Source: Mobula hypostoma (taxonomy: Eukaryota). From it: a stretch of 64,000 bases of DNA. The stretch covers positions 25,358,001 through 25,422,000 of the forward strand of contig NC_086108.1 of NCBI RefSeq assembly GCF_963921235.1. Reading direction: 5' to 3'. The notes beneath the pieces were generated by a model, which worked only from the letters and a program-made list of their open reading frames with translations, did no database searches and was not told the DNA's origin. The position numbers were made by a program, and so were the translations under genes. Positions 15,375-59,385 of the stretch are shown here, piece by piece. How positions within the stretch are numbered: position 1 is the stretch's first letter; each line of letters begins with the position of its first letter.

Positions 15375-15615
15375 AAAAACTGCAGATGCTGGAAATCTTA
15401 AAACAAGAGCTGGAAAGACTCAACAGGTCAGGCAGCATCTGTGGAAAGAGAAGAACAGAGTTAATGTTTCAGATGAATGAGCTTTCATCATTGATGAAAA
15501 GTGAGAAAACCTGTTTCTTCACTTCTCCAGTTCTGATGAAAGTTCATCAAATTGAAGTGATAACTCTTTTGCTCTCCACAATTGCTGCCTGACCTGCTGG
15601 TGGTTTCCATGGTTC
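15375..15615. mobile_element. Short palindromic element made of two inverted PLE termini
   Basis: Left arm caggtcaggcagcatctgtggaaagaga...tttcatca is the reverse complement of right arm ctgatgaaag...ctctccacaattgctgcctgacctg. Confidence 0.7.
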
Positions 15616-16289
15616 CTGCTGTTATGCCATGCTAATGTTGAGTTCCAGAATCAGAGTGAGGGAATTAATTTGCAATTTTTGGACTGAAAATTCAGATACA
15701 GAGAGGTTCAACTGTGCTTGCTTGCAAAAGAGACCCAAACACGTTAATAAACAGGTACACCATAAGTATATACCTGGAATTGGTGGCACTTAAATACAGT
15801 AGATTCAGCATCCTAAAGTTATTGTGATAGGTATTTGCTTCTTCCTCATGTTTGCTAAGCTTGCTCTCTAAATAGCAGCTGCCATTTGAAAGGTCACAGA
15901 CAGTTATAAGTAAACTTTCAACTATATTGCTTTGTTTAACTTCTGGTCATAAATGAAAGAAAGTTTTCAGTTCTTAAAATGTAAATGGGAAGCAGCTTGA
16001 AGTTATAAAAGCACTCTTTATAGAACAGCTTTGCATATAGTCTCTGTATTCTGAAGATGCTCTGTTTGTAAAGAGTCACTGCACTTTCTTTATCATTGCT
16101 TAAAAATAGTTTATAAGACATTGGGTGGTTTAATTTGGGCTGTATTAAACAAACAAGCTGACTCTTAAGTTGCTTAGTTTGAGGTAGCTTGCAAAACCAA
16201 TTGGTTAATATCATTTAGCATATCAATAACTGATGTGATTATAGTTGGAAGAGTTTTATGTATTCAGAAGTTAGCTTTACAGCATTAAT

Positions 16290-16990
16290 GGTAGCTAGCT
16301 AAAATCTATGTCAACAAAAAATACTACTAGACTATTTTGCTAAAAAGACATCTGAGGAAATACCACCTGCTTGTGAAGTCACTCAAGTGTGAGAAAAGTA
16401 TATAAATGCAGAGAGCAGTTCGGGTTTATGAGGAATGGGGTAAAGAACATCAAGAAACATGGAAGAACTAGAATCCTTTCCTCCAGCTATGGTTTCTGTG
16501 ATGGACAACTTGATTGTCTGTATCTTTGTTATGCCTTTTTTTAGTTTAGAGGAATTGTATCTGTGTCTTTAATCTCTTTTGTTTGAGAAATGTTTTGTGA
16601 TTTGGAGAAGGTTTGTGTTTTAGAAATGGTTTGTAATTGGGAAATGTTTAAGATAGAATTCTTCTGTGGTTTTAAATGTGTTTTTAAGAGTGTTCTATGG
16701 ATTTAAACATGTATCATTGAAAATAAATGAGCTGTGTTTAAAACTAGTTTGTTAGATGGAATTATCTTCTCCTTGGTGGGGAGAGGGGATTCACCACTCA
16801 AAAAGCAGGTATTGGCAGCTAAAACTCACTGTGGAGAATAATCAGGAAACTGAACTGGTTTTTGAAGATTGGGAAGATACAGTATTATCTCCTTTAAGTG
16901 AGAGTACTCATGTCTATTGATATTGAAAGGGCTTAAGGTTTTCATTTGAGTTTAGAACTTTGTGGTCTGCAAACCCAGAACCATCGCATT
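16290..16990 (+). repeat. Old interspersed repeat, probable solo LTR (copy 1)
   Basis: Collinear diverged homology with 19910-20670 (gaagaactagaat, aacatgtatcatt.aaaataaa, agggcttaa...ttgagtttag). TATA-like tatataaa near 16399 and aataaa near 16723. Confidence 0.6.
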
Positions 16991-17406
16991 GTCCAATGTG
17001 GAATGATCGGGTCTATTGGGCTAACACTCATTGGGATCTAGTTGATCAGTTAAAAGCATAAAGGATTCTGAGGAAGAAAAGCAGAAGGGATGCAGGGAAG
17101 ATGCTTCCTCCGTGTATGGATCTGCAACCAGAGAAAACAGACTCAGGACAAATGGTTAGACATTTAAGACTAAGATGATAAGAAACTTTATCACACAGAA
17201 TTTTTGGAAGGAAGGCTGTGAATACCTGAGTCTATTCAAAGCTCATATTTTTAGATTTTAAGAGATCAAGAAAGTGAAAGGGTATGGGGGTTTTCTGAGA
17301 GAGGATCGGTTCAGCTGTATCTTTAAAATGGTTGAACAAATCCCTAACAATCCCACCTTGTTCTTCCCACTGTATTAAAGGACACGATTATTGCATTCAA
17401 AAATAT

Positions 17407-17800
17407 CAGAATCAGGTTTAATATCACTGCCATAGATCATGAAATTTGTTGTTATGTGCCAGCTGTACATTGCAATACATAACAAAAAACTGTAAATTAC
17501 AGTAAGGAGTACTGGTTGCTGGGGAGGCTAGTGCCTATGATGGATCTGACTGAGTTCATGACCTTCTACAGCTTATTTCGATCCTCTGAGCGCACCACAT
17601 AGCAGACGTTGATGAAGCCAGTTAGAATGCTCTCTATTTTGCATTTGCAAAGACACCCAAGTGTCCTCAGTGACATTCCAAATCTCTTCAAACTCCTAAT
17701 GGAAATATAGCCGCTGTTGCACCTTCTTTGTGACTGCATTGATATCTTGGGTCTAGGATAGATCCTCAGAGATCCTGACACCCAGAAACTTGAAATTCTT
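17407..17800 (-). mobile_element. Rex-Babar LINE remnant
   Basis: IRSLKRFGMS...CKIESILTG; tail (ctgatt) at ~17410. Confidence 0.7.
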
Positions 17801-18159
17801 ACACTCCTAAAGCCACATTGAGAATTCCAATGAAATAAACCTGCATCCTTAATCTCATACATTGCAACCATGTAGTCAGACCACTAAAAGCTCCTGGATC
17901 TACTCACTCGGGCACAGGACTGTTTTTGTACTGCTTACACTTCTGGCAGCATTGTTCAAATCAGCCCTCTCTTCATTTAACTATCGGTAGCAAAGAGGTG
18001 ACCAAAATGCTGTTTTCTTTTTGTGTATACTTCAATTCTAGAATAGAACTCATTTCAGCAAAAAGATACAAAACGAATCATGTAAGTCCTCCTAACAGTG
18101 TTAAAATGTCACACAGAACAAAATAGCAGTCCAACATTGATACAATTGGGGTGAATAAA

Positions 18160-18460
18160 CAGGGTGGCTCGGTTGCATCGTGGTGAGAACAATGCTTTAC
18201 TGTACCGTCAACCCAGGTTCAACTTCCGTTACTGTCTGTAAGGAGTTTGTACTTTCCCCTCATGATCACGGTTTCCTTCGGGTGCTCCAGATTCCTCCCA
18301 CAGTCTCAAGGATACAGTGGTTGGTAGATTAATTGGTCATTGTAACTTGTCTCATGATTAAACTCAGATTAAATCAGGAAATTAGGGGTTGCTGTATGGT
18401 GCAGTTTGAGGGTCCAGAAGGGCCTAATCCGTGTGCATCTCAATAGATCAATAAAATAAA
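18160..18460 (+). mobile_element. V-SINE (HE1-like)
   Basis: tRNA-like head (ggttcaac B-box), V-domain tgtctgtaaggagtttgtac...gtttccttcgggtgctccag..cctcccacagtc, and A-rich tail. Confidence 0.8.
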
Positions 18461-18631
18461 AAGGAAAGAAAAACAAGGGAGGCCCTTGAGCATATCCCAC
18501 CATTCAGGTTGATCATAGTTGACCTATGCTGGCCTCAACTCTTCATTGCCAGCTCTCCAAACTATCAATTCCTCATCACACCTTAAAAGGAGGCAAATAT
18601 ACTTTGGGTAAAAGAAGCATCCAAAAGAGTA

Positions 18632-19329
18632 TGTAGCCCCCATGGCCAGCCTCAGGGTCGCTTGGTTTGCTGTCGTCTAGGGAAACAGCCTCGGCCCCGC
18701 CAAACTGGGTAATCAGTTTGTGTGGATGCTGTGTAATGTACCCCATCCCGCCCAAAGAACAGACAATACACCAGATACGATTAAATGATTTACAGTTTAT
18801 AGATATTACTGGAACTATATAATTAATGGAGAATAAAATATAAAAGGAAAATCAAAGGCGTCACACTTATCAAAGTTCAATCTCTTCGTGCACAAACAGT
18901 TGGAGCTCAGGACCGTTCCTCTTCACCCTGCGACCCCTCGGACCACCTCAACCGGTCGCCTGGGACCAACAATGGTGGTCAACCAGATACTCCACACGAG
19001 TCCATCTCCATCTCCTCTCCTCGCCGAACGCCCCGCTCGGGGTCCGACCCTGTTAGTGGACTCACAGCACCTGGTCAATCCTCTGTCTCTCCCTCTCCCG
19101 CCTTCTGCCCCAAAACCCTGCGCATACAATATCTTACAAGCACACCAAAGCATAACAACTATCCCAATTGGTTCATTTGTCCTCTTATCAATAGATAATC
19201 CAAAACAATCTGCTAGCGGGAGGACTTTCTCAGCAGTTAACATAACAAAGAAGCCCTTTCAATTATAACATAATGAAGAAGGCATTTTAATTAGACTATG
19301 CAGTGACATAAAGAAAAAGAAACCTTACA
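18632..19329. mobile_element. Solo LTR, 698 bp
   Basis: TGTA...TACA termini, 4-bp TSD agta at 18628-18631 and 19330-19333, CpG-rich core. Confidence 0.8.
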
Positions 19330-19422
19330 AGTAGAATCAGAATTAAAATAGCTTTGTACTATATTTTTGCTACAAAACAACTGACAGTAATAATAAATCT
19401 GATTCTGATTTTGACTTGGATA

Positions 19423-19900
19423 TACACTCAGTATCCATTCTATTAGGTACACCTGTACACCTGCTCATAAATGCATATAACTAATGAGCTAATCATATAG
19501 CAGCAATGTGGTGCATTATAGTATGAGACATATTTAAGAGGTTCAGGTATTGTTCAGACCATCAGAATAGGAAAGAAATGTAATCTAAGTGACTTTCACG
19601 TGCAATGATTGTTGGTGCCAGAAACTGCTGATCTGTAGAGATTGTTATGCATAACTGTCTCAAGAGTTTACAGACAATGATGTGAAAAACAGAAAAATAT
19701 CCAGTGAATGGCAGTTCTGTGGGTGAAGACACATTGTTAATGAGTGAGATCAGAGGAGAATGGACTGACTGGTTAAAGCTGACAGGAAGGAAACAGCAAC
19801 TCACGTAACCACATATTACAACAGTGGTATGCAGAAGAGCATCTCTGAAGGCACAGCACATTGGACCTTGAAGTGGATAGGCTACAGCAGACAAACACAA
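19423..19900 (+). mobile_element. Tc1/mariner transposon remnant (TIR plus transposase N-terminal HTH)
   Basis: TA-cactcagt...tattaggtacacc end; broken GKKC.LSDF..AMIVGAR..TVSRVY..YNSGMQKSISEGT..TLKWIGYS. Confidence 0.75.
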
Positions 19901-19909
19901 GACAATCAT

Positions 19910-20670
19910 GTTATGTCACTTAGTACATCAAACATGGTTACAAGTTGGAATGTTTCTGTGCTCAGAGGGTCTGTCCTGACAGCATTAATTGGGGATGTTT
20001 GGGATCTCTGCCTCCTGAAGCTTTAAAACCAGCTATGTGAGTTACTTTTTCCCTACTAGTGTACCTGGAAAACATCACATGCAGAAGTTATGAACTAGTT
20101 GAAAATTGTATAAGTATCAGAAGCATTGGGGATAGTTAGGAATGACAAGCAGAATGACAGAAAGATGGGGTGACTGAAAGAAGAACTAGAATTCATTCCT
20201 CAACCTTCAGTTTCTGCAACAAATCACCTGTTCTTTTGCAACTCATTGGAATGTTCTTCTACTTGAAATGAATTGTACCTCTGTTAGAAAATCCTTCGTA
20301 GTTTGCAAAACTTTTGTAATTTGGGAGTCTTTTATAAATTATAAACCTTCTGTGAATGTTAAACATGTTTTATAAATTATTTGTCTAAATTTAACATGTA
20401 TCATTAAAAATAAAATAAATTGTGGCTTAAACTATTTCAATAGCTTTAAGTATCTCCTACTTGGTATAAAGGGGGGAACCAGTCAAGCAGTGGAGATTGG
20501 CATCTAGACCTCATCACAAAGACTAGACAGGAAAGTAAGTTAGTCCTTGAAGAGCAGATGTATACAGTGTAACCTCCTTATCAGAGGGTACCCATAGATA
20601 TCTACATTGGATAGGGCTTAAAATCTGCTTTTGAGTTTAGGGCTTTTTGACAGGGGACCCATTATCATCA
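19910..20670 (+). repeat. Old interspersed repeat, probable solo LTR (copy 2)
   Basis: Homology to 16290-16990; ends ...atcatca. Confidence 0.6.
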
Positions 20671-21367
20671 GGAACTGATAATTTAAAAACACTAATGCAT
20701 GGAATACCACATAGCCAACTGAAATTTCATACACTCACTATCATTATTTAGATATCTCCACCAAAAATAGCAATTATACCAGAACCGACCTCAAAATGGA
20801 TCTATATGTTTCATGTGTGCTCAAACCCAATCATTGTTAAGTTATCACATTCACCATTTCCATAAAAACAAGGAGATAAATGAAGTTTTCAACAAGAATG
20901 TTGACAATTTCAATATTGCAATATTGTATTTTAAATTTTAAAGTGAGCCGATTGTCAGGAACCCTGACCTCTGAAGAGCACCGACTAGTTCCTGCAAATA
21001 AGTTTCTTTCCAAATATGCAAACTGAAGATGCAGGGAATATCCAATTTGGCTATACATTTTCTGATATATTAACTGTTTCTGATTCCATATTTCCTGTCT
21101 GGCCCACTGAATATCTCCAGAACTTTGTATGCTTTTGATTCAGCCCTCCAGCTTTTCAAATGCTGATCCAGGATTGCTTATAGGCCATAAGTGGGAAACG
21201 TGCTCTGCTCTGCACTCCCTCACCCCCCACCCCCGCCATCCTTCCCACACTGCAACACTCACTGGTTCCACGCTCTGAAGCTAGCCTATCTTCCAGCACT
21301 CATAGTCCACAGTCTGCCATTACTCCCTTAAATATATTCTCAAGCCACAAAAAGAAAATTATACCTA

Positions 21368-21700
21368 CAGTACTGTGCAAAAGTCTTAGGCACATGTAAA
21401 AAAAATTCCGTAAAGCAAAGATGCTTTCAAAAATAATGAATTGAAAAGTTTTTAAGTATCAAAAATACTATAAAGTGCAGTAAACAGTAAAAAAAAATCA
21501 ATTCAATTTTTGGTGCATCCACCCTTTGCCTTTAAAACTGCATCAATTGTCTTAGGTACACTGTCGTGCAGTCCTATAAGAAAATCGGCTCGTAGGTTGT
21601 TCCAAGCATCTTGGAGAACTTGCCACAGTTCTTCTGCAGATTTTGGCTGTCTAGCTTGTTTCCGTCTCTCCAGCCTCGGTGATGTTGAGATCAGGGCTTT
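21368..21700. mobile_element. Tc1-like transposon end fragment
   Basis: TA + cagtactgtgcaaaagtcttaggcac TIR, followed by Tc1-type subterminal sequence (ccaccctttgcctttaaaactgcatcaatt). Confidence 0.7.
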
Positions 21701-22734
21701 GTGGGAGACATACCATCTGAAACCATATAAAGAAATCTAGAGTGCTAAGACTAAGATTTGAAAGTAAAAGATTTACAAGACCATTGGAAAAGAGAATAGG
21801 GGACCAGATTTATTGGTTTGTTCTACAAAGACCAACCACAGACACTGTGCTTTATCATTTAAAGAATGTACATTTTTTGCAATTACTCCGTGAAAGGTTA
21901 TATTGTTTTCTGAGTCAAGAGGTAACAGTGATATTTTAGAAATTATGATATTGAGCTATTCGTGTATATCTGCCTTCATATAGTTAAATAAGAGTTGTAT
22001 TTCACCACCTAAAATCTTCTTAATTTAGAATAAAGCCATTTTCTTTTTAAGGTAAGAGAGCCGCTTGTAACAGCAGGTACAACAGGCCAATTAGTGGTAC
22101 ACTTACTCGACAAGGAATTTAACCAACTGGAAATGAATTTGGGTCCCGCGATTACCAGTTGTGAATTGAAGTCAGACATCAGGAGTCCTCATACTCCAAT
22201 TATATTCCACTGAGTTTTACAGGGGTTGGTAAAAGAACAAGTACTGTGCCAAAGGAATCCCTTCCCAAGTGAGCATACCAGGAATAATGTCTGATCACTT
22301 GACCTTACATTATCTGATCTTTGATACATAATTTTATTCTTTCCAGATTACTTTACCACTACAATTCAAAATCTGAGCTCAACCTAATCAGTTTTTAAAG
22401 CTACAATATCATCAGAATCTCTGTTTTGAAAATCAGAAGTAAGTGATAACCCAAATTCATAATCTTAAAAATAAAAGAAAGATGGGCTGAATTGAACATG
22501 ATATTCATTGATCATGGCTGATCCTCTAATTCCAGTCCAATATTCCATGATCCCAATATGCCTTGATTCTTTTGGGAATTCCCTTGGGTTGCTGAATCTC
22601 AGTTTTAAGATAGAATAGATTATTATTTAGATAGTTTGAGACTAATAGATGTTGGTATTCTAAAAGATTTAATGCACCTGTTTAAGAAACACAGAAAGTT
22701 ATCATGCAGGTATGGCAGGTAATTAAAAGTAAAA

Positions 22735-22970
22735 CACTGCAGATGCTGGAATTCTGAAATTAAAACTGAAATTCTGAAGGTATTTAGCAGTTATGTCAGC
22801 ATCAAGGAGAGAGAAATGGAGTTAAAGTTTTAGGCTGTTGAAAATTACTCATTACTGCCATGTTGGGATAAAAGCTATACCCGGCATCTTTCATCTGAAA
22901 CACTGATTTTGCTTCTTTTTTCCATAGATGCTGCCTGACCTAGTCAGCGTTTCTAGCATGTTCTGTTTTC
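22735..22970. mobile_element. Degraded palindromic twin PLE-terminus element
   Basis: ctgcagatgctggaa... left arm and ...catagatgctgcctgacc..tctagcat right arm. Confidence 0.6.
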
Positions 22971-23963
22971 ACTATAGGCACTGTGTGCTTGATTCAATTA
23001 ACAATGGGATATAAAGGCAGGTACAATTAATGTGGAAATGTGCACGAATAAAAAAGGCTTTTATGTCATGGCAAATGAGAATAGCTGAGATTGGCATCTA
23101 TGTCGGCATCAAATAGATGGGCTGAAGAGCATGTTTCCACACTGTATAACTCTATGGGTCTCTAGGTTAATGCAAAAAGAAAACAGCAAATCTCCATTTA
23201 TTCTAATCCCTTTCAGCACTTATTATTGAAGAAAATGTCAGGGTCATCTTCAGACCTCAAAGTGCAAAGAACCAACCATCAAATTAAGAGTGCAAAATAA
23301 ATTCAATCAGACTAAAAGTAACCAACTGATCAATACATCTAGTCCCTCAGGTTCCATTTAGTTACTCTCAGATAAATCAAAGGAATCCTTGAAAGCAAAT
23401 GAAAATAAATAGTGCGGCTTTCAAAACGAAACAAACTAAATATTTTAGTTTGATGAGAAAACATAACCAAAAAGCAATCTTCACTTTAGCGGGCAGGGAA
23501 CTATCCAGCTTATCAGTTTAATAAACAGACATGATGCAGTGTTCTCATGTAAAACAGGTAGGAAATAATGCAGACCAGTTCATTGTGCCTTGCTAGAGAT
23601 CTGCCGTAGATAAAGGACATTCAAAGTGACTTCCAGAATACTTTGTGGGGAATATTTGTAAGGTCAGAAGAGCACCTCTGGGGTTCTGAGGAAGAGAAAC
23701 TGATACCAATGTATACTAGTACATCCCACTAACCAAGAGTCTACGCAGTTTTCTCAACTCATTCTGCTGATTCACAGCTCCTTACAGAAGCAACCTCAGA
23801 CAGACACCCACCTAAGACCCCAGTGCTTTAATAGGCAAAAGCAAACAGATCCTTAAATAGTTTGGATCTCCCAAATTGAATTTGGAAGCAGGTCAGGTCT
23901 GAGTTAAGCATAATACTAAGTATTGCTTTTAAGTTTCTTTGTAATAAGTTCTGATCCAACTGT

Positions 23964-26535: not shown

Positions 26536-26570
<35 letters not shown>
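26536..26570. repeat. Compound (TG)n(GA)n microsatellite
   Basis: Read directly from the sequence. Confidence 0.95.
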
Positions 26571-27094: not shown

Positions 27095-27240
27095 TACCAG
27101 TCATCTTCATAACATCTCACCCTACAGGTACCCTACACTCAGAATGCACTGAAAGATTGCCTTTAGATTATCTCCTCAGTTCTCTATGGTAAAAGTCAGG
27201 CTTACAAAAGTCTGACTTGCCAGCAGGAGTGCCAGTACTC
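27095..27240 (-). mobile_element. Possible ancient DeuSINE/SacSINE-like head remnant (similar remnant at ~26310-26490)
   Basis: ctcagaatgcactgaaag...tagattat..ctcagttctct resembles a recalled DeuSINE head; highly diverged. Confidence 0.35.
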
Positions 27241-27879
27241 AAAGAAAGACAAAGGCAAATCAAATCAAAATCTAGAAATTGTCAAAATGTAACAGCCTAA
27301 GTAAACCCATATCTGCAAAAATATTCAGCAAGTCAACTTTTCACTTGTGTACTCTTTTCTCCTGAAGAAATGTATTAAAAATCAAAAGCAGCTAACAACT
27401 GCTGAAGGAACTGTCTGCGTCAAGCAGTATCCATGAGGGGAGAAGAATTGCCCATGTATCAGATCAAAACTCTGCTTTACAACACTGATTATTGCTCGGG
27501 TTTCCAACATCTGCAGTCTTGTCCCCATTCTACTACAGAACTGCAAAGTCTCTTCAAGGTATGCTGACTTTGAAAATGCTTCCCCCCTTTTCCTGAAGAG
27601 AATTCTGCCAGCTCTCACTGCTCCCTATCTGTAGTTCCCACGACCCTCCGGCTCCTCTTCGACCACATTGCTACCAAGACTCACTACAGTTCTTTCCTCC
27701 CAGACTTGCCGAGTTCCTCCAAAAATTTGTTGCTCCAGGTCCAGCAATGCCATCTTGTGTGTCTCTACCTAAAATCAAAAGTCTTACTTTATTTCTGAGG
27801 GAGAATATACAAAGTGTGAACCAAGCTTTTTGCTTTGACAATTGCTGATTGACTTTTTGTGAGCTTCCAAAATTGCCTC

Positions 27880-28930
27880 AAACATCAGGAAATCTGCAGA
27901 TGCTGGAAATCCAAAGCAACACACATGAAATGTTGGAGGAACTCAAAAGGCCAGGCGGCATCTATGGAAAAGAGTAAACGGTTTACATTTCGAGCTGAGG
28001 CCCTTCTTCAGGACTGAAAAAGGAGGGGTGAAGTCAGAATAAGTAGGTGGGAGGAGGAGAAGAAGAAGTACATGGTGGCAGATGATAGGTAAAATTGGGA
28101 GAGTGGGAGGGATGTAGGGAAACAGGAATGATGAATGGTGAAAGTGGCAGAATTAGCAGAAGTTCAAGCCTTCAAGCAGAACAAGTGCGGAATAAGTGCC
28201 ATACCTACCCCTATACCTCCTCCCTCACTACCATTCAGAGCCCCAAAAAGTCCTTCCAGTTGATGCAACACTTCACTTGTGAGTCTGTTGGGGTCATTTA
28301 CTGTATCTGGTGCTCCTGGCATGGCCTCCTGTATATTCGTGAGACCTGACGTAGATAGGGAAACTGCTTCAATGAGCACCTTCAGTCCGTCTGCCAGAAA
28401 AAGTGTGATCTCCTTGTAGCCACCCATTTCAATTCCATTTCCCATTCCCATTCTGACATGTCAGTCCATGGCCTCCTCTGCTGTCACAATGAGGCCACTC
28501 TCAGGCTGGAGGGGCAACACCTTATATTCTGTCTGGGTAGCCACCAACCAGATGGCATGAAGATTGATTTCTCGAACTTCTGTTAAATAACACCCCCCAC
28601 TTCACCATTCCTCATTCCTGTTTCCCTCTCTCACCTTATTTCCTTACCTGCCCATCACCTTCCTCTGGTGCTCTTCCTCCTTCTCTTTCTCACATAGTTT
28701 TCTAACCTCTCCTATCAGATTCCCCCTTCTCCAGCCCTTTATGTCTTTTACCAATCAACTTCCCAGCTCTCACCTCTCCCAGTTTCACATATCACCTGCT
28801 ATCTTGTACTTCCTCCCTTCCCCCCACCTTCTTACTCTGAACTCTCAGCTTACTGAAACATCAACTATATAATCTTTTCCATGGATGCGGCTGGCCTTCT
28901 GAGTTCCTCCAGCATTTTGAGTGTGTTGCT
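27880..28930 (+). mobile_element. Penelope-like element with inverted 5' terminal copy
   Basis: 27880-28130 is a reverse-oriented terminus. 28170-28585 encodes KCHTYPYTS..FTCESVGVIYCIWCSWHGLLYIRET (GIY-YIG). A direct terminus follows to 28930. Confidence 0.88.
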
Positions 28931-41670: not shown

Positions 41671-41691
41671 AATAAGGGAAGTGATATTTAC

Positions 41692-41895
41692 AACAATGAA
41701 CAATCTGCTAGAGGACCACAAACAAATCGAGCAGCATCTGTGAGATGAAAGAAACTGTTGACGTTTCAGGTCAAAGTTCTGCCTCAGGATTTCATCCCAA
41801 AAAATTGACAGTTCTTTTCTCCCACAGATGCTGCTCAAACCACTAACTTGCACCAACAGATTGTTTGTTGCTACACATCTCCAGTCTCTTCTCTC
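41692..41895. mobile_element. Palindromic twin PLE-terminus element
   Basis: aacaatctg..gagcagcatctgtg..aactgttgacgtttcagg | ttgacagttc..cacagatgctgctc..cagattgtt. Confidence 0.7.
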
Positions 41896-43781: not shown

Positions 43782-43884
43782 GTTCAGGCTCATCCATGCT
43801 GACCATGTTGTCTATTTGAGCAAGCCCCATCTGCCTGCATTTGGCCCAGATCCCACTTACTATCCTTTACTTATCTAAATCCTG

Positions 43885-46299: not shown

Positions 46300-47955
46300 T
46301 TGGAAGTGTGGTGGATGTTCCAGGTATCAGTGGACATGATGTGTGCGAAGTTGCGATAACTAGAGAGAAGGTTCTTGGGAAATTGAAAGCTCTGAAGGTA
46401 GATAAGTCACCAGGACCAGATGCTGTACACCCCAGAGTTCTGAAAGAGGTGGCTGAGAGATCGGAGGCATTAGTAATGATTTTTCAAGAATTACTAGATT
46501 CTGGAATGGTTCTGGAAAACTGGAAAATTGCAAATGTCACTCCACTCTTCAAGAAGAAAGAGAGGGAGAAGAAAGGAAACTATAGGCCAGTTAGTCTGGC
46601 CTCAGGGTTGGGGAAATGGTGCCGTTGAATATGAAGTATGAGGTCTCAGGCTATTTGACACACATGATAAGATAGACCACAGTCAGCATGTTTTCCTCAA
46701 GAGAAGATCTTGCCAGACAAATCTGTTGGAATTCTTTGCAGATAGAACAAGCAGGATAGACAAAGGAGAATTGGTTGATGTTGTTTACTTGGATTTTCAG
46801 AAGGCCTTTGACAAGTTACGACACATGAAACTGCTTAACAAGCTATGAGCCCATGGTATTATAGGAAAGATTCTAGCATGGATAAAGCAGAGGCTGATTG
46901 GCAGGAGGCAAAGAGTGGGAATGAAGGGAGGCTTTTCTTGCTGGCTGCCATTGATTAGTGGTGTTTCAGGGGTCTATATTAGGACTGATTATTTTTATAT
47001 TGTATGTCAGTGATTTGGATAATGGAATTGATGGCTTTGTTGCAAAGTTCACAGACAATATGATGATAGGTGGAGGAGCTGTCAGTTTTGAGGAAGTAGA
47101 AAGGTTACAGAAGGACTTAGACAGATTAGGAGAATGGACAAAGAAATGGCAGATGGAAAATTGTGTCGGGATGTGTATGGTCATGAACTTTGGTTGACTA
47201 TTTTCTAAATGGAGAGAACACACAGAAACCCGAGGAGCAAAAGGACTTGGGAATCTTTGTGCAGGATTCCCTAAAGGTTAGTTTGCAGGTTGAGTCCGTG
47301 GTGAGGAAGGTAAATGCAATGTTAGCATTCTTTTCAAGAGAACTCGAATATAAATGCAAGGATGTAAGATTGAGAGTTCATAAAGCAATGCAGAGTTCTC
47401 ACTTGAAGTATTGAAAGCAGTTTTGGGCCCATTATATTGGAAAAGATGTGCAGAAACTTGAGAAGGTTCAAAGGAGGTTCACGAAAATGATTCCAGGATT
47501 GAAAGGTTTATCTTATGAAGAGTGTTTGATGGTTCTGGGCCTGTATTCACTAGAATTCAGAAGAATTAGGGGTGACCTCATTGAAACAAATCGAATAGTG
47601 AAAGGCCTTGACAGAGTGGATGTGGGAGGATGTTTCCCATGGTAGGAGTGTTTAAGACTTGAGGATGCAGCCTCAAAATAGAGGAGCATCATTTTAGAAT
47701 GGAGATGAGGAGGAATTTCTTTAGCCAGAGAGTGGTGAATCAGTGGCATTCTTTATCACAGGCAACTGTGCTGGCCAAGTTTTTAATTATATTTAAGGTT
47801 GAGGTTGATAGATTCTTGATTGGACAGTCATGAGGGGATACAGGGAGGAGGCAGGAGATTGGAGCAGCGAGAGAATTTGGATCAGCCATGATGAAATGGC
47901 AGAGCAGAGTCAATGGGCCAAATGACCTAATTCTGCTCCTGTATCTTATGGTCTT
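46300..47955 (+). mobile_element. Older 5'-truncated CR1 LINE
   Basis: VLGKLKALKVDKSPGPD, NYRPVSL, YLDFQKAFDK and LEKVQRRFTKMIPGL; many stops and frameshifts. Confidence 0.9.
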
Positions 47956-48099
47956 AAGTTTATGCATTCATCCTCTGAAATAGGTATTGGTATTAGTTTA
48001 TTATTACCAAATACACCACGATGCAGTGAAAAACTTGGCTTGCATACAGTCCAAACACATCAAATCATTAACAGTGCATTGAGCTAGAATAAAGTAAGA

Positions 48100-48240
48100 C
48101 ATGCCGGTTGGTAGGTTAATTAATCATTGTAAATTGTCCTGTGATTAGGATAGGGTTAAATCAGGGGTTGCTGGGCAGCGCAGCTTGAAGTGCCGAAAGG
48201 TCCTATTCTGTGCTGTTTCTCAATAAATATATAAATAAAC
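48100..48240 (+). mobile_element. V-SINE 3' half
   Basis: ggttggtaggttaattaatcattgtaaattgtcc...ctcaataaata. Confidence 0.7.
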
Positions 48241-48364
48241 AAGCAGCAATGCAGATTAAAGTGTGAAAGGTACTGAAAAAGTGCAGTGCAGGTAAACAAT
48301 AAAGTGAAAGATCACAAGCAGGTATATTGTCAGACTATGAGCCAATTTTATAGTATACGACAGT

Positions 48365-48620
48365 CATTCTCCCTCTCCGGCCTGTTATTTCTTTCATGAA
48401 TCAACCTCTCAGCTCTTTACTTCACCCTCTCTCCCTCTCTTCAGGTTTCACCCATCACCTGGCACCTTGTAATTCTTTGACCCCTCCCCGCACCTTCTTA
48501 TTCTGACTTCTCTTTCAATCCAGTCCTGATGAAGGGTCTCAACCTGAAACGTCAACTGTTTACTCTTTTCCGTAGATGCTGCCTGGCCTACTGAATTCCT
48601 CCGGCATTTTGTGTGTGTGG
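48365..48620 (+). mobile_element. PLE 3' terminus
   Basis: CT-rich tract, hammerhead, then tagatgctgcctggcc...ccggcattttgtgtgtg. Confidence 0.8.
48521..48558 (+). ncRNA. Minimal hammerhead motif
   Basis: cagtc-CTGATGA-agg(gtctcaa)cct-GAAA-cg-TC-aactg; palindromic ACGT in helix III, one stem-I mismatch. Confidence 0.7.
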
Positions 48621-49764: not shown

Positions 49765-50200
49765 AATATGAGGCTGAGGGATGACCTTATAAGAGGAATA
49801 TAAAACCATGAGGGCATAGATAAGGTGAATAGTCCTAGTCCATTTCAAAGGGTAGAGGAGTCTAAAACTAAAAGCCTACATTTAAGGTGAGGGGGAAAGA
49901 TTTAATGAGAATGTGAGGCAACATTTTTTTAAGGAGGAATGTTTGGTATATGTAACAAGCTACTAGAAGAAGTGGTAGGAGCAGGTACAATTTCATTGAC
50001 AGATATTTGAACAGGTACATGGCTACGCTAGGTTTAGGGCAGGGGTTCCCAACCTTTTTTATGCCATGATCCCCCACCAATAACTGGTTTAAAGGGATAT
50101 GGGCCAAATGCAGGCAAATAGGACTAGTTTGTCATGTCATCTGGGTCAGTATGGAAAATTTGGCCAAAAGGGCATATTTCCATGTTGTGTAACTCAATGA
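49765..50200 (+). mobile_element. CR1 3' remnant containing an internally deleted hAT MITE (50040-50086)
   Basis: RLRDDLI..YK.MR.IDKV remnant; caggggttcccaacc...ctg flanked by gtttaggg / gtttaaag. Confidence 0.7.
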
Positions 50201-53200
50201 TTCTATGGAGAATAGTTTTCGCTTCATCAAATTTGTATTCATCACACTCTTGAAAAGAATCAAATTCTTTGATATCATCATTTGCATAGTTTTCTGTAAA
50301 TGGCCTTAACCAATGATCACTTGTCCTCTGCATGCATACCAATTAAGAAGCTTTATTATAAGCAGAATAGTTCTCCAAATACATTGCTTAAGAAAGGCTA
50401 TTTATAGGGTCTGAGGACAGGAGGTTGGAAATGATGCGTTAAAAAATACAAGGAAATTATAACGGGAATGCTATCTTATTCTTTAAGAGCTGACAATGTT
50501 GATATGACCAGATTGTACAAAATAAATCCTAACACATAATTAGAGGACAGAAGGATAGAATTGGCATTGAAGGAAAAGCAGATGTAGAAAATCCAAAATA
50601 AAAGCTGAAAGTGCTGGAACAACTCAACATTTCAAACAGCATCTGTGTAAGAAAAAAAACTGTAAGTACCCTTCATACAGAACATCATTAGAAATGGTAT
50701 GTTTCAGGAAATTTTTCAAATGAAAAATACTTGCTCCTAAAGGGGACATGAATCAGAAAGCCATAGACCCAAAAGAAACATCCAAGTTATTTCATTATTT
50801 CAGAAAATTCTTGTTTAAGAGTACAATTGAAAGTTTGTGAAATATTTGCCATCATGGGTTTTCAACAAACCCATATCAGCTGTGCTCTTAAATTCATTGA
50901 AAAACATTTCCAAATGTGAAAACATGCTACTTCCTCAAAAGTATTTCTTATTTTGAAATCTTTGTTAACATTGAAACTACTAAGAAGTAATTTAACAGCT
51001 GATAAATTTTACAGTATGGTTTTGCATTTCACCCTATGCAAATGTAATGAAGAAGAATATTACTATTGCCAATCTCTTTCAAACTCATTCCTGGCACAGA
51101 TTGCTGGTTATGACTAAATGTATATTAAAACCCTTGCTTTGCTGAAACTGATAGATTAAACTCAACATTACCTATGTTTACAAAGGATCAAAAATTAAGG
51201 TTATCAAGGGATGATCTGCAGGATGTAAATGATCAGAAATGCAGAGCTCACAATTAACAAGTTTTGATCTTGAACATTTATTTAGTGAAGGAAGAGGGAA
51301 AGAGGAATTTCAGCTTTTTAATGTATTCTCAGAAGATCAGGTGAATCATATTTTTGTGAGTGGCCCTCACTTATTTTGTGGCAGAAATAAGCTAAGGACT
51401 TTTCACTTACTTTTTCATTCATTCTCCTACATTTTCTTAAGTAATAGCTAAAAAATTAATATTACAGTGATTCTGATGACTCCTTTGATATTCTGACCAG
51501 TCCTCTCACATTTTTAAAATAGCCATCCGAATGGGGACCTCATTCATCAGTATATATGGTCAATGAGTAAATATGCCAGGACATGGAATCAAAGTCACTT
51601 GTCACATTAATGGCTTTTGTAGGGTTAACCATAATAAGCTAGGTTTCACAACAGCCAGTTGGAGATAATATATAATATTGCAATGCCATATAAAGGAATT
51701 AATGACTTAAATGACATTAATGTGTAATATAGTAATTATATCACTTCATGTAATGTAGACGAAACATAAACATTGCAGTCTATGCCAAGTGGTTTAAGGA
51801 TAATTACAGAAGAAAAGACATCCCATAGGATCCAAGACTTCTATTAGAGTACTGTATTCCAGTAACTTATAACAACAATGCTTAATTAGAAAATATCCTT
51901 CAAGGACAGGCAGTTGTAGGCACATGAACAAAATGGTAAAGAATATTACAAACTACATGTAGAACTGATTTTGTTGCCTTGAAGGCCAAGTGGATATCAA
52001 ATAGCATACAAGTTAAGTTCCACATGCCTAACTATTATTTCAGCTTTATATTTGGAGTAATTTCTAGGCTATAAAGCATTATTGACCCAATAATTTCATG
52101 GAAGTGTCAAGTCAACCTTGATGTTAATTCAAGGCAAGTAAAATGATGTGTGTGCTCGGAAATCCTGCCTTTACAATTCATTTGGGAACAGCAATGCTGC
52201 TTTATAGAGCATTGTGCGAAGCTCACACAGGTTGTTCACTCCAACATGTGTGAGAAAATCTCTGTTGCAATGTCAGTCCCAAAAAGGCTTTTGTCCTGGT
52301 GCACACATTACACTGAGGAATCAGACAACTCGTAGACTTGCAGCTGTGTATTGATACCACAATGATAAAAGAAACTAAGCAAACAGATTACTCAGGAGGT
52401 CATCAGACATTTTATAAAATGATTTAAAAACAAATTGCAATAGTACTGCTACATAATGCATTGAGCTCTTGTATCAATAAGATTCCGGGGATGTTTTTAA
52501 AATTCTTGGAAAATTTTAATAGGTTCAGTGTTTTTAGAGAAATTTGGAGGCAAAGAGGGTGGTCTACAGGCTGCTGGTCACATTTCCTTTAGTTATCAAT
52601 GAATGAAGTTGCTTTACCACCTGTATGGGTCATCAGAATTCTTCTTCATTCTGGTAAGGCTCACAATTAGAAACTACCTGTTGTGATTGTCAGCTCAATT
52701 TGCAAGGAACTCATCACTATGACAGAAAGGAAGCAGCATCATTTTCAATTTAATCCTTGTTCTTTTTAAAATACTTTTTCGGACTGCTCATTATGTAACT
52801 TCTAACAAAGGTACTTATTCACAACTATGTTTGAGGACTCAGATTGCTCCATCAATTTTCCCCAAACACTAAACAGATTTCTGCCAATCAACTCAGTGCA
52901 AGGTGTTGCAAATATTTGCAGCAGATATGCCCGTAGCTTGAGATAGACTGCTGCAGGTTACTATCAGTAACAAACAACAGCAGAAACAAAATATTGATCT
53001 CAGCCTTAATTGAAGATAATTACAGAATTGAGGGAAATAACGTTCCTGGACTACCTGCAAGGTCTCTGATTCACTGAATAGCTAAAATCTACCAGTTTTG
53101 TCTTGAAACTGCTCAGCGATCAAATCTCCAGAGCTAACTTGGGTAGAAAATACCACAGGCAGTGGGATGTTGGATGCTTGACATGAAAAACTTTCTGCCC

Positions 53201-53426
53201 ATCTCTGTCCTGACTGGCAACCCCTTACTTTGAGATGGTCACCCCTTGTTTTAGACCCCAGCCAGGGGAAATATTACCTCCACTTCCATCAAGCCTTATC
53301 AAATGTACTTTCTGTACATTTAAATGAAATTACTTCTCTTCACTCTCATCTCAGCTGAGCATCTGGAATGGCAAAAGCCATTATCTCCATTTACTGATGG
53401 AAACAGATCTGTATACAATACTCCAG

Positions 53427-53617
53427 ATTGTTGTTGTTCCTCTCTGTGCCTTGTGGTGAATCGAGGAACAACCTTGCCGTTTCTTTAGCACCTGTCTTTT
53501 TTTTTATGAGGCTGAGTTGCTAGTTTGATGCTCAACGCAGTGTGCAAGGCACCGGCTGTATTCGAACCCAAGACCACTCGCCTCGAAGTCCAGTGCGGAT
53601 GAACCACCGACCAGCAT
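53427..53617 (-). mobile_element. tRNA-derived SINE with (caa)n tail inside a degraded minus-strand CR1 (~53155-53770)
   Basis: Minus strand gggttcgaatac B-box; ttgttgttgtt tail on the plus strand. Confidence 0.6.
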
Positions 53618-55914
53618 AACATTCCGGATGCAATATCAATAATTATAATCGGAGTAGAGTATTTATAGACTTGTGTTCAATTTTTCCTATAATAAAGGTC
53701 AACACCCCATGCATGTTGAGCCTGCACATTAACTTTCAATAATTCATGTACAAATCAGTCAGAACCCTTTGACCATCATTCGCTTTTGCAGTTCTGATGA
53801 AGGATCATTGATCTGAAACACTGATTATGACCGTCTTTCCACAGACCTTCTGAGAGTCCCCTGAATTTTCTGTTTTTGTTACTAATCAGTGGTTAGTCCA
53901 TGAAGCAGTGCCTGTTACAGGATGTGTTAAAAGAACTGAGCATTGAGCTTTGGGATCTCAGCCATCTCATCAATTCAGTGATTGATACCACAAATAGTCT
54001 AGTTTTGACTCTGCAAGGTCAAAGCAACATTTTGGCTAGTGCGAATTGTACCACAGATGTACATGTATGTCCAGAATGCCATGCTGCAACTAATTTGGAA
54101 AGACCAAACACACAGAGGTGATTACTATGGAGGCAAATACTTCAATCCATTGCAGGAACAAGCGAGAAGCTGCCTCTACAGACCATCTGTATAAAAATGA
54201 AACAGCTCTTATTTAGATTTCTCCCAAGTGTTCCATTCACTGGAAGATCTTCAAATAACCTTTATGTGTCAAACTAGCCAATCTGTCAAACGTAATAAAC
54301 CGATTACAAAATTGCAGTACTTGATTCGTAGCACTAGAGGACAATAAAGCAGTTGTATTGTTTGCCAGCAAGCTTGAGATTGAGAACTGCAACAGTGCAA
54401 CAGGTCTGCATTCAATGGAGCATATTAACACTAAACAGTGAGTGAACTTTTAAGTAAGAAGACCACATCTACAAACCATTTCCGGCTAACATGGGAAAGA
54501 AGGGTCAGGATGCAGGGGACAGCATTAAATAAATGCAGAGCATTTGCAACTACTGTATGTCTTGTAGGGACTAAAACAAGGAACTTTGGGTTTGTAGATT
54601 TGAGAAATTACACTATATAGGATGAAATTGTCTGTACAGCATGGCCACAGGACATTCAGCCCAATTCATTCAAGGCTGAAATTTGTACGTCTTCAGCATC
54701 TGCGCACCTTTCATCAAGGAAATCTATCAGCAGAGCTCTCCATCCTTATCTTCATCATACTCTTATCCAGCAGTTCCTTAACTGCACCCATGTCTTCAGG
54801 AAATCCATGTAGAACTGAGTTGCTCATTTTCACTGTGTTTAGGGAGAGGAAAAGATAAAGGTCGGCAAGCATGTGTTAAACTGAGGGAACGAGTGAGCAA
54901 AGGCTGTGAAATATTGGATGATTTGAGGTAGGGAAGCTGAATATTGAAGCTAGGCTGCCAATGACAAAAAAAAGCTTTGCTAATAGGGAAGGTAGATCAG
55001 GAAATGTTATAGCAACTCAAAAATAGGCCTTAGGATTCAGTAGGATGTTAAAATTTGAAAACAACTTACATTGCAAAGAGCCACATGATGAAAGAAGATG
55101 AAGTTAGCAATAAAAATGATTTTTGGTCAGAATTAAGAAATGTTGCCTAAGAACTTACAAAGTCATAGAGCAAAGGGCTGATACTCAAATATGTAACATC
55201 CTCCCGAACCCTTCAGAAGTTTAATAGAACTGATAGGATTGGAGAATTAGAAATGATCATTGTTAGCTAATACTGGAACGGGGATATCACTAGTTTTCAC
55301 TGTGGCAATAGCAGGTGAACCAGGTGCTCTATTTGTTTTTCTGAAGCCTGGTAACGCAGAGAACAAAAATGTATTAATTCCTGATATAAATAAATTGTCA
55401 TATTAGTACATATAAATATTGCAGTGATTTCTCTTTATACCAAATTTTATATATGCTTATTATGTATAAAGAAGAATCGAGACAGAACTACAATGATAAA
55501 ACTGTTTCAGCAACATAGGTGAGAACAGGTGTAGACTACATTGACTGTTTTGTAGATTACATGTACACTGACTATAATATAATTTTGTACTCTCTTTCCT
55601 ACTCCCACACTAAATTGTCTGGTCTTGGCCTTCTTCATTGCTATGGAGAGATCAAATGCAAATTGTAAGAACATTTCATTTCCAACCCAATGGTATGAAC
55701 ATTCGATTTTCCAAGTTCAGATAACCCAAATCCCAATGAACTGTTCCCACACACTCATCTGTCCATCTAGTTTTCTTCTCCCCTTGTTCACCTCTTCAAT
55801 CACTTCCCCCTACTTGGCTCCATCTATTAATCATTTCCTCCCCATATGGTTCCACCTATCAAACACCAGCTTGTATCCCACCTCCTCGTGTATGACTATA
55901 CTCTGTCAGTCTTC

Positions 55915-56210
55915 GGGTGGCATGGTAGCATAGTGGTTAGCGCAACACTTAACTGTACTAGTGACCCATGTTCTATTTCCTCCACTGTAAGAAGTTTCTA
56001 TGTTCTCCATGTGACTGCAGGGGTTTCCTCCTGGTGCTTCAGTTTCCTCCCACAGTCCAAAGATATACCAGTTGGTAGGTTAACTGGTTATTGTAAATTG
56101 TTCCATAATTAAGCTACGGTTAAATTGAGTGTTGCTGGGTAGCCTGGCTTGAAAGGTTGGAAAAGCCTACTCTGCACTGTATCTTAATAAATAAATAAAT
56201 AAATAAATAA
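55915..56210 (+). mobile_element. V-SINE with (taaa)n tail inside an old PLE remnant
   Basis: gggtggcatggtagcatagtggttagc head; V-domain; (aaat)n. Confidence 0.8.
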
Positions 56211-56961
56211 ATCTTCCCCTTTCCCTCTCAGTGCTGACGTAAGGTCCTGACCCAAAAGGCCAACTCACACCTGTTGACTCCTCAGATGCTGTCTGAGTCA
56301 TTGAATTCGTCCAACACTATGTTTAGCTCCAGGTTCCAGCACTGGCAGAATTTGTATCTCCTCACGCTTGTCTCCTCCTTTGTTCCAAGATGGGCAGCTT
56401 GGAATACCACACAGCTTGAAAGTTACATGAAAACTGCATTGCATGATAGCTTCAGAAGGTGCTCCAGCATCTCCTCCGGCTCTATCATTCCACAACATTA
56501 ATATTGCAGGGAAAAGGGATGATTCACCTTTGCTTGAGAAAGCTTTGTTTTGACAATACATTTTGAATAGAAAGCACAATAAGCCCAGTTAGCAATACTT
56601 TTACAGTGAGGGAGGAGTGTGTGAAGGATTTGACAACTGGATGCATTTGTTTAGAAGTGACACTGAAGTTTTCTCTGTACTGTCAATCCTTCAAGATTAG
56701 TTGCTTTAGGAGATAGAAATAGACCAGGAAAAAGCAGGAGCTAATGACCTGTATGATCTACAGTATATTAATCAATGCAGCAATAATTTCCCAGGTAACA
56801 GTATAAGCTTAATGCAATAAAGCCATAGAGAGAGGAAACATAGAAACAGGCCCTTAGGCCCTTTGGCCCATTGAGTCTGTACTGAACATCAACCACCTAT
56901 TTATATTAATCCTACACCAGTTCCATTCCAGGGGTAATTTACACTTGCCAGTTAACTACCA

Positions 56962-57335
56962 GGGCGGTGGGATGGAGATAATTCTCTACCAAGGGAGGTA
57001 TAAGGCACTCCTTCCCTCCGTTAACCTGCGGGTCACCATTGGGCAAGGCGTCGCACCTGGTTAGTCCCCTGAGCAGAGACATCTGAAGCCATGGAAGAAG
57101 GTGATGGATGGACGTATGAGCATGTCACAAGTCCTGGTAATATGATCACTGATGTCAGGCAGATGATCTCTGAAGAGCATTGATAATGGCTGGGAGTCAC
57201 CCATCTTGTAAAGACACTGCCCAGAAGACGACAATGCCAAACAACTTCTGTAGAAAAATTTGACAAGAACAATCATGGTGATGGAAAGAGCGTGATCACC
57301 CATGTCATATGATATGGCATATAGTGAATGAATGA
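56962..57335 (+). mobile_element. Non-autonomous RTE-related SINE-like element
   Basis: RTE/BovB-like 3' end aatgccaaacaacttctgtagaaaaatttgacaagaacaatcatgg, (tgaa)n tail; second copy starts at ~63905. Confidence 0.65.
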
Positions 57336-58227
57336 ATTAACTTACCAACCTGCCTATCTCTCATGGGATGAAGAGACAAACAAAAGCACCCACATGGTCA
57401 CAGGGAATACATGCAAATTCCACACAGAGGTCACTGAGGACTGCATGAACCCAGATTCTAATGATACGAAGCAGCAGTACTAATAGCTGTATTATTGTTC
57501 CATTCTATAGATTTGAAGAAGTACTCATAATGATGATGTCTGAAGAAATGTTTGAGAGAATTGCATTTAGAACTGTGGGCTTGGGTGAAAAAGTTCAGTC
57601 GCTAATTTGAACAAGGTTGAGGACAGTCATGCTGGTGAAGGGATGGGGCTGCAACTTAAAGTCATTGATGAGACAACAGGAAACAACATGGTTAAAGAAG
57701 GCCCAAAGCATGACTGGAGGGAAGTTTCAGGATAAGAGCAAAGAAATCACGAAGATTCATGGGTGTTTGAACTTTAAACTACAAGGGGGGAAAGTCATGA
57801 GTTCCACAACATAAACCTGAATTCTGCATTCAGTGAAATAAGTCACAACTATAAGAACATAACAATTTTCCAAAGGAATACCCTAGTGCATGGACAGCCA
57901 GAATAATTGATGAGATGGAAACAGCAATGTATTTTTATTGTGTTAATAATTGGGTTTGATACACTTAAGTTTGAATCAGAATAGCTCCAGGTTTCAATTA
58001 GCTATACAAACACATCAAACAATTCTACATCATTGATACAGAGAACCAAAGCAAAAGGTTAAACTTGAATCAAATGGCTTTACTTAACTCTAAGTTTACA
58101 GTGTTGCCAATCTCACTGTTTGTTCATCCAGTGCGGTGTTGACAAGTGTAAGCTATCTACAAGTTTGTCAGCACAGTATAATTATTTGCCTCCTGAAGGC
58201 TGACTTGGGCATGCATGTCATCAAGTA

Positions 58228-58685
58228 TAACCAATTCTATACGGCCACAATTGAGAGCATCCTGACTGGCTGCATCACTGTCTGGTATGGGAACTGTAGC
58301 TCCCTTAATCGCAGGACTCTGCAGAGAGTAGTTGTGAACTTCCCATGATTCAGGACATTTACAAAGACAGGTGTGACAAAAGGGTTCGGAGGATCATTAG
58401 AGACCTGAGTCACCCCAACCGTGATCTATTCCAGCTGCTACCATCCGGGAAACAGTACCACAGCATAAAAGCCAGGACCAACAGGCTCCTGGACAGCTTC
58501 TTCCACCAGGCCATCAGACTGATTAACTCACATTGATGTGAGTGTATTTCTATGTTACATTGACTGTTCTATTTATTATAAATTACTATGATTGCACATT
58601 GCACATTTAGACGGAGACGTAACATAAGGATTTTTACTCCTCGTGTATGTGAAGGACGTAAGAAATAAAGTCAATTCAATTCAAT
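58228..58685 (+). mobile_element. Rex-Babar LINE 3' fragment
   Basis: FYTATIESILTGCITVWYGNC and LFQLLPSGKQY..FFHQAIRLIN; (attca)n tail. Confidence 0.85.
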
Positions 58686-59171
58686 ATAATGCTATTATTT
58701 GAATACTTTTTAGATCCGTGACTGCAAAGATGTAACCAATGTATAATGTTGAAACCTCATGGGCTACCTACATATGGAGAAGGACACTGTTGGAGCAATG
58801 TACTTCTTTTCTGTCTGTATTGTATTTTGTGTTGTGCATTTTTATTGTGGGTTATGGTAACTTGTCACTTGGGTGGGGGTGTGGTAGAAGAAAGTGAGTA
58901 TGGTCACATATTCACGTTTTGTCCTCATTAGTTTTTGTTGCTGCTATTCACTCAAATTCCAATTATATTGCTAAAATTGTCAATTTCACTATCACTAATT
59001 TGGTTACACTAATTCTGACATCTCTCATTTTGATCACTCGTCTTTGCTGGTTTTGAAATAAAGGATCAAAAATACCTTTTGCAACTTGGAACTCAGTTGT
59101 TTGGAAGCATGTCAGTGGTTTTGGTTTGTTTTCTTCAAGTAATCGCTACAGAAACATTGAAAAAGAATAAT

Positions 59172-59385
59172 GCATACAAAATGCTGGAGGAACTTGGCAG
59201 GCCAAGCAGCATCTATAAAAAAGAGTAAACAGCTGACGTTTTGGGCTGAGAACTGATGTCCCGATGAAGGGTCTTGGCCTGAAATGTTGACTATGTACTC
59301 TTTTCCATAGATGCTGCCTAGACTGCTGAGATCCCCCAGCATTTTGTGTGTACTTCTCTGATTTCTCGCATATGCAGATTTTTTC
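59172..59385. mobile_element. Palindromic twin PLE-terminus element (clearest example)
   Basis: acaaaatgctgg..gcagcatctata..aagagta..gacgttt | ..gaaatgttgac..tactctttt..atagatgctgc..ccagcattttgt. Confidence 0.8.

What the first reader, a model, noticed from the sequence alone, without database searches (positions are those of the whole stretch)
15375..59385. Recurrent short palindromic elements centred on the hammerhead: candidate non-autonomous PLE 'twin-terminus' family
Seen: at 15375-15615, 22735-22970, 41692-41895 and 59172-59385 (possibly 27380-27525), two PLE termini are joined back-to-back with no coding sequence. In the clearest cases the inversion centre is at or just 5' of the hammerhead motif. 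Solo fragments at 5745 and ~53790 also begin at the hammerhead, and 27880-28930 shows the same inverted architecture with GIY-YIG sequence still inside. Established: PLEs often have an inverted 5' terminal copy. Inference: a ~200-250-bp MITE-like, ribozyme-delimited retroelement class, or a stereotyped abortive-insertion product. Either would form RNA hairpins in whichever direction it is transcribed.
Basis: partly seen in the sequence, partly recalled or inferred. Interest (0 to 1): 0.7.

Follow-up and report, generated by a model that had tools for sequence, protein, structure and literature searches.

The report
Penelope run-off palindromes, not a MITE
These ~200-base mirror-image repeats are real stubs of a Penelope-type jumping gene, each built anew where it landed rather than copied from one mini-element, and they likely form when both cut DNA ends copy the element's RNA and run off at its start, a few bases in front of the ribozyme motif and not at the ribozyme's predicted cut site.

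Summary
The palindromes are real: four of five window loci hold two head-to-head Penelope-like (PLE) ends; 27380 is doubtful. About 70,000 short pairs are estimated genome-wide (26 in 1.264 Mb). They are not a MITE family. Pairs carry 13-15-bp target duplications (105 of 143), exactly one tailed arm (131 of 143), nearly all-different junctions, and mirror-image versions of one junction. They are the short end of a continuous series that includes 27880-28930. The 5' ends pile up at the hammerhead's 5' edge (about 10-fold over upstream), with a sharp limit at A(-4) and excess G before it; there is no peak at the predicted cleavage site. Tail polarity excludes simple fold-back, and some pairs have arms from different sequence variants, so two RNAs can be used. 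Best reading: both nicked strands prime at two fixed RNA sites and run off at a capped RNA start (inferred; a protein roadblock at a splice-acceptor-like site is the rival). The layout is in print; the base-level edge and two-template evidence were not found in five searches. The scan noted these elements many times before, in this and other genomes.

The parts
59156..59168 (+). Left target-site duplication of the 59172 element (13 bp, 12/13 match to the right copy)
59169..59251 (-). Tail-less PLE arm, about +96 to +11; lacks the hammerhead core
59258..59391 (+). Tailed PLE arm, -3 to +130; hammerhead motif at its 5' end (one core change), tail about 59357-59391
59392..59404 (+). Right target-site duplication of the 59172 element
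15368..15612 (.). Older head-to-head pair: tailed - arm (15368-~15507) and tail-less + arm (~15511-15612); centre about 22 nt 5' of the core; no clear TSD
22725..22968 (.). Degraded pair: tailed - arm (22725-22857), ~25-nt spacer, tail-less + arm; no clear TSD; weak hairpin
41691..41894 (.). Older pair: tail-less - arm ending near -2, + arm starting near +10 with decayed tail
27375..27525 (.). Doubtful pair: significant - arm to about -5, plus a + tail fragment that does not beat shuffles
27880..28930 (.). Long pair: inverted tailed arm 27880-28144 (-135..+130) and direct tail-less arm to 28930 with a broken GIY-YIG frame at 28266-28580
5745..5880 (+). Solo tailed stub starting at -2 to -4; TSD-like 14-mer at 5726-5739 and 5885-5898, a few extra bases before the element
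53786..53883 (+). Degraded solo tail-less stub starting near -5; TSD uncertain (11-mer lies 26 nt from the start)

Best explanation
Each palindrome is one independent insertion of a Penelope-like retrotransposon, likely made when the element's enzyme nicks both target strands 13-15 bp apart, primes reverse transcription from each nick at two fixed internal RNA sites (+95 and +130), and joins the two cDNAs head to head after they likely run off at a capped RNA 5' end at A(-4), the front edge of the hammerhead. Shown from sequence: TSDs, one-tail rule, two fixed 3' ends, variable junctions, pile-up at -4..+15, no peak at the predicted cut site, occasional arms of different variants. Taken from PMC11167929 (another PLE, in vitro): both strands are cut and extended, RT starts at two internal sites that bound the tail, and cleavage is not needed. 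Inferred: simultaneous priming, use of two RNAs in a minority or more of events, joining by microhomology or short fill-in, and the cause of the stop (RNA start about 0.55, roadblock about 0.3, other 0.15).
For: Layout: 38 head-to-head pairs, 0 tail-to-tail, 2 tandem among 203 termini in 1.264 Mb taken without regard to content. One tail in 131 of 143 pairs (29 of 34 unbiased), against 49% expected from 61 of 142 tailed solos. TSD in 105 of 143 pairs vs 1.6% of shuffled flanks; 13-15 bp in 59 of 83 strong cases. Stops: 0.024 per nt at -9..+5, about 0.002 upstream, 0.0035 at +16..+30. Exact genome counts: non-G at -3 516, non-A at -4 614, G at -5 217, A at -5 109, Y at -5 3624, purine at -6 167; true ends in samples of 30 each: 22, 20, 28, 27, 3, 23. 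Solo ends at -5 (about 61) equal what chance extension of -4 ends predicts (about 53), so the limit is -4. G:A at -5 is 217:109 against a genomic 0.72, as a copied cap would give; A(-4) sits in a YYANWYY initiator-like context (motif recalled). No shared exon-like sequence upstream of 70 solo ends and no spliced junction in 334 arms. Tailed arm stops >10 nt short of its partner in 55 pairs, beyond it in 22. Discordant arms: 5 of 31 at a family-B G/T site, 12 of 53 at a family-A indel. ORF-continuing upstream termini also stop there: 10-11 of 43 within -15..+9 (36 of 43 inspected).
Against: No RNA 5' end was seen: only contigs were available. 380 of 422 ORF-continuing termini that reach -4 carry on to -9, and their stop rate (about 25%) is half that of family-B arms overall (25 of 47); a start at -4 therefore needs a second population of longer, multimeric templates. 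Position -4 also coincides with the 5' strand of stem I and a branch-point/pyrimidine/AG acceptor-like motif, so the cause is confounded. The extra G often lies in the TSD or in the partner arm. Duplicated first bases, expected from template jumps, are weak: 4 of 70 vs 2.1% background. The tail lag is not significant in the unbiased set alone (14 vs 7, p 0.19). Discordance at the B site is only p 0.022 against the all-substitution background, family A is old (10.6% arm-arm mismatch), and later gene conversion was not excluded. Four of the five window pairs show no clear TSD. 109 of the 143 pairs come from loci picked by similarity or pattern.
Confidence: 0.72

Rival explanations
1. Same two-primer insertion, but the cDNAs stop at -4 because of a roadblock on a longer RNA: splicing factors on the acceptor-like AG and pyrimidine tract, or the element's protein holding the hammerhead fold, like a telomerase template boundary.
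For: Branch-point-like CTGAC/CTAAC, pyrimidine tract and AG lie directly 5' of the core; in D. virilis the intron ends at the 5' end of helix I (PMC4209133); PAc hammerhead folding is protein-assisted (PMC11167929). Most ORF-continuing copies pass -4, as a leaky block allows; several stop at -6..-25.
Against: A block does not by itself explain the G excess at -5 or the sharp limit for solos. Family B has a different acceptor-like context yet shares the -4 ends.
Confidence: 0.25
2. One cDNA folds back on itself and copies itself (self-priming), as proposed for inverted pLTRs in PMC3846280.
For: 42 of 101 short junctions overlap by microhomology; arms mostly share variants (identity 0.854 vs 0.782 permuted).
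Against: Fold-back of a sense-templated cDNA needs the tailed arm to be made first and so to reach further 5'; it stops short in 55 pairs and reaches further in 22. Loop-less symmetric junctions occur (B131 82132). Some arms differ at diagnostic sites. The antisense-template version of that paper was not tested directly.
Confidence: 0.1
3. A non-autonomous MITE-like or retrozyme-like family: one palindromic master is copied as a unit and its centre decays afterwards.
For: Similar size and centre at many loci; some arms show later internal deletions; four junction triples occur twice.
Against: Junctions 97 distinct of 101 (BLAST end noise inflates this somewhat); one repeated junction is a mirror pair in tail polarity (B061 48126 vs B101 50546); tail-tail, tail-less and cross identities are equal (0.787, 0.778, 0.782); every subfamily and age class makes them; sizes run continuously to over 1 kb.
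Confidence: 0.05
4. Hammerhead self-cleavage sets the RNA end that the cDNA runs off.
For: A few junctions sit at +28 (L268, L340, L342, L343).
Against: No excess of ends at +16..+30; most arms include the core 5' of the cut; the +28 cases are explained by the 5-nt stem-I microhomology with -5. PMC11167929 found cleavage dispensable.
Confidence: 0.03

Closest known systems
Endonuclease-bearing PLE insertions with an inverted 5'-truncated copy, one-sided 30-40-bp tail and TSD (PMC8557442; Pen2a_Av in PMC3846280; passages read)
   Same: Head-to-head termini, tail on one arm, TSD, microhomology junctions, tandem 3516-bp unit with RT and GIY-YIG in the genome.
   Different: No coding part; both arms stop at the hammerhead's 5' edge; tens of thousands of events; TSD 13-15 bp rather than 8-10.
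PAc (Poseidon, Anolis) in vitro system, PMC11167929 (parts 1-2 of 4 read)
   Same: Two RT start sites bounding the tail; both strands cut and extended; cleavage not needed.
   Different: That text does not describe inverted products or a stop at the hammerhead; this element looks Neptune-like.
Opposite-strand dual minimal hammerheads 100-700 bp apart in Schistosoma (PMC4209133, passages)
   Same: Two minimal type-I motifs on opposite strands, ascribed to truncated PLEs.
   Different: Here they abut, and junctions, tails and TSDs are mapped.
Animal non-LTR retrozymes (10.64898/2026.07.22.740005, part 1 of 5 and passages)
   Same: Non-coding, hammerhead-bearing, PLE-derived.
   Different: Retrozymes are direct tandem repeats; these are inverted and are not copied as units.
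L1 twin priming (recalled, not from a call)
   Same: Both target strands prime; inversion with microhomology and TSD.
   Different: Twin priming copies different parts of one RNA; here both arms copy the same segment from two fixed start sites.

Membership tests
EN+ Penelope-like element insertion | Parent element with RT and C-terminal GIY-YIG | tested here: met
   L385 unit: RVT_1 E 3e-5, GIY-YIG E 2e-4, both below Pfam gathering scores; frame broken in two places; GIY-YIG remnant in window
EN+ Penelope-like element insertion | Tandem organisation forming pLTRs | tested here: met
   Two termini 3516 bp apart in L385
EN+ Penelope-like element insertion | Minimal hammerhead in the pLTR | tested here: met
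   Core, stem II, palindromic ACGU and stem I by inspection; no Rfam hit; activity untested
EN+ Penelope-like element insertion | Inverted 5'-truncated copy, one-sided tail, TSD | tested here: met
Neptune clade | Zn-finger-like Cys motif between RT and EN (PMC8557442) | tested here: met
   CxxxxCxxC before the GIY-YIG in L385, by inspection
Neptune clade | RT phylogeny | not tested
   no named reference RTs fetched
MITE or other non-autonomous family | Copies descend from one master and share its internal junction | tested here: not met
MITE or other non-autonomous family | Symmetric terminal inverted repeats | tested here: not met
   one arm is about 35 nt longer in 131 of 143 pairs
Non-LTR retrozyme | Direct tandem units each with a hammerhead | tested here: not met
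   pairs are inverted; 2 tandem vs 38 head-to-head
Non-LTR retrozyme | Unit ends set by self-cleavage | tested here: not met
   no excess of ends at +16..+30
Non-LTR retrozyme | Circular or small RNA | not testable with these tools
   only contigs available

The most novel reading that the evidence does not exclude
The PLE protein works as a dimer that can hold two RNAs, primes both target strands at once (one at +95, one at +130, the tailed one trailing), and ends both when the first runs off a capped RNA that starts at the hammerhead's first stem base. Inverted pLTRs, the one-sided tail and the 13-15-bp TSD would then be one two-ended reaction, and the stubs a genome-wide record of the element's transcription start.
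Probability: 0.35. Interest if true: 0.7.

Novelty: new member of a known kind. Interest (0 to 1): 0.45.

Why it matters
How PLEs make inverted ends and a one-sided tail is called unresolved in PMC8557442. These stubs give tens of thousands of natural products with measurable ends, and they separate the models: tail polarity argues against fold-back, discordant arms against a single template in all events, and the end map against ribozyme cleavage. They name a base (A-4) and two start sites to test in an existing in vitro system. They also warn that repeat catalogues may mislabel such stubs as MITEs, and they seed many long hairpins in the genome.

Tried and rejected
Rfam scan: no hammerhead hit. 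First chaining run was wrong because references held inverted arms; redone. First marker calls by regular expression covered too few pairs; redone by alignment. A spliced exon 1 upstream of the stop: no shared 10-mers of that kind among 70 solo ends, no junction from the donor-like site at -624 in 334 arms. RNA: no RNA holder listed; laying contigs of four runs showed no GT..AG joint among the 15 joints displayed (245 not shown) and cannot show starts. I first read the 9 of 43 ORF-continuing copies missing -4..+9 as mutation; direct inspection showed 6-7 of the 9 are true ends. No intact family-A element was sought. Four '-13' ends are alignment overlaps of one -4/0 junction.
Full report
Setting. 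The window is G000:C50:25358001-25422000 in a 3.48-Gb genome. Positions are counted from the first C of the hammerhead core CTGATGA (0); the predicted cut lies after +27 by canonical numbering (recalled).

Observation. Four of the five cited loci are two PLE ends head to head, each arm beating 100 shuffles; 27380 has only one significant arm. Each confirmed pair has one arm ending near +95 and one with a tail to about +130. Only 59172 keeps a clear 13-bp TSD. Long hairpins form on both strands at three of five loci. 27880-28930 has the same layout with a broken GIY-YIG frame on the strand of the hammerhead motif. The parent is a tandem 3516-bp unit with RT, a Cys-rich linker and GIY-YIG, Neptune-like by the linker; no tree was built.

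Unbiased sample. I took 1.2 Mb in twelve 100-kb blocks plus the window. Of 203 termini, 76 form 38 head-to-head pairs; none are tail-to-tail and 2 tandem. With a stricter gap rule there are 34 pairs, 26 of them short, or about 71,000 (47,000-105,000) per genome for the families my references detect. Adding 109 pairs from similarity- or pattern-picked loci gives 143: 131 with one tail, 9 with none, 3 with two. TSDs are found in 105 of 143 against 1.6% of shuffled flanks, mostly 13-15 bp.

Family or independent events. 97 of 101 short pairs have distinct junction coordinates; 42 overlap by microhomology, 4 are blunt and 55 have extra bases (BLAST ends are noisy). One junction recurs as mirror images, the tailed arm at 0 in B061 and at -4 in B101, which copying of one master cannot give. 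Tailed and tail-less arms are no more alike within class than across. Partners are more alike than random arms (0.854 vs 0.782) and share a major family in 94 of 96 pairs. So each pair is one event, made anew.

Where the arms stop. The stop rate is 0.024 per nt at -9..+5 and 0.010 at +6..+15, against about 0.002 upstream and 0.0035 around the predicted cut; dropping 7 ends with pyrimidine-rich flanks changes little. Exact genome-wide counts with samples of 30 each put roughly 380, 410 and at least 300 visible ends at -2, -3 and -4 and about 130 at -5. For solos the -5 count matches chance extension, so -4 is the limit. G precedes A(-4) twice as often as A does although the genome is A-rich, and T precedes that G in 12 of 20 solos against 2 of 17. 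That fits a copied cap plus an added base, but the G often also lies in the TSD or partner arm. No exon-like shared sequence or spliced junction was found.

Test against my reading. If all RNAs began at -4, copies that run on into the ORF should start there. Most do not: 380 of 422 reach -9. Inspection of 36 of 43 such copies on C1 found 10-11 ending within -15..+9; the other 7 reach at least -9. That is a clear pile-up but half the 25 of 47 seen for family-B arms overall. An RNA start at -4 thus needs longer multimeric templates beside it; a leaky roadblock at the acceptor-like site or the protein-bound hammerhead fits this too.

How the inversion is made. Fold-back would need the tailed arm to reach further 5'; it stops more than 10 nt short in 55 pairs and reaches further in 22 (14 vs 7 unbiased, not significant). 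Arm lengths are correlated (unbiased 22 short-short, 5 long-long, 2 mixed; the looser rule gives a few more mixed pairs). Arms differ at diagnostic sites in 5 of 31 family-B and 12 of 53 family-A pairs, fewer than random pairing and more than simple mutation at the B site, so two templates are likely used in some events; gene conversion is not excluded. With the in vitro results of PMC11167929 this supports two primers, two fixed starts, and joining when the leading cDNA ends.

Literature. Read: PMC11167929 parts 1-2 of 4; passages of PMC8557442, PMC4209133, PMC2377424, PMC3846280 and PMC8969392; part 1 of 5 and passages of 10.64898/2026.07.22.740005; no supplements. The inverted copy, tail and TSD are described there. 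Five searches did not return a description of ORF-less stubs stopping at the hammerhead's 5' edge; the library lacks most subscription papers and Repbase.

Earlier scan notes, seen after my reading was formed, report the same elements and similar readings in this and other genomes; they are not independent support. Two propose one RNA copied twice, which the discordant pairs here partly contradict.

Verdict. A real, abundant, stereotyped by-product of a known element class; not a new mobile family. Its value is as a natural data set on PLE insertion. Interest 0.45.

Noticed in passing
window 70-3860: Head-to-head inverted pair of LINE 3' ends, 1.58-kb arms 96% identical with a 641-bp spacer; RT-like frames and a short repeat tail that look CR1-like (label recalled). 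A similar two-ended layout in another retroelement class; an older relative lies at 46377-47961.
   Followed up: partly
L381:498-1072, L382:525-973, L383:548-1000, L386, L387, L390, L393, L402, L404: Short direct units in which the element's first 200-335 bases are joined to positions -19..-180, with a different junction at most loci; 285- and 310-bp tandem spacings also occur. Retrozyme-like, possibly from template jumps to an RNA ending near +290.
   Followed up: partly
L385 (G000:C2:157231900-157236700): Young tandem 3516-bp unit with two breaks in the frame; 422 exact-pattern copies of the young subfamily continue into the 5' region, suggesting recent activity.
   Followed up: partly
L181 and L241: ORF interior joined directly to -4 or -3 without a GT donor, as if a cDNA that ended there jumped to another part of the RNA.
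   Followed up: no
reference positions -30..-3 in all subfamilies (e.g. window 48490-48525): Branch-point-like, pyrimidine tract and AG directly before the hammerhead, as at the D. virilis intron end; a strong donor-like site lies at -624, but no spliced copy was found.
   Followed up: partly
   Followed up: partly
family-B pairs, position +83: All 5 discordant pairs differ in the same direction (tailed arm T, tail-less arm G); unexplained.
   Followed up: no
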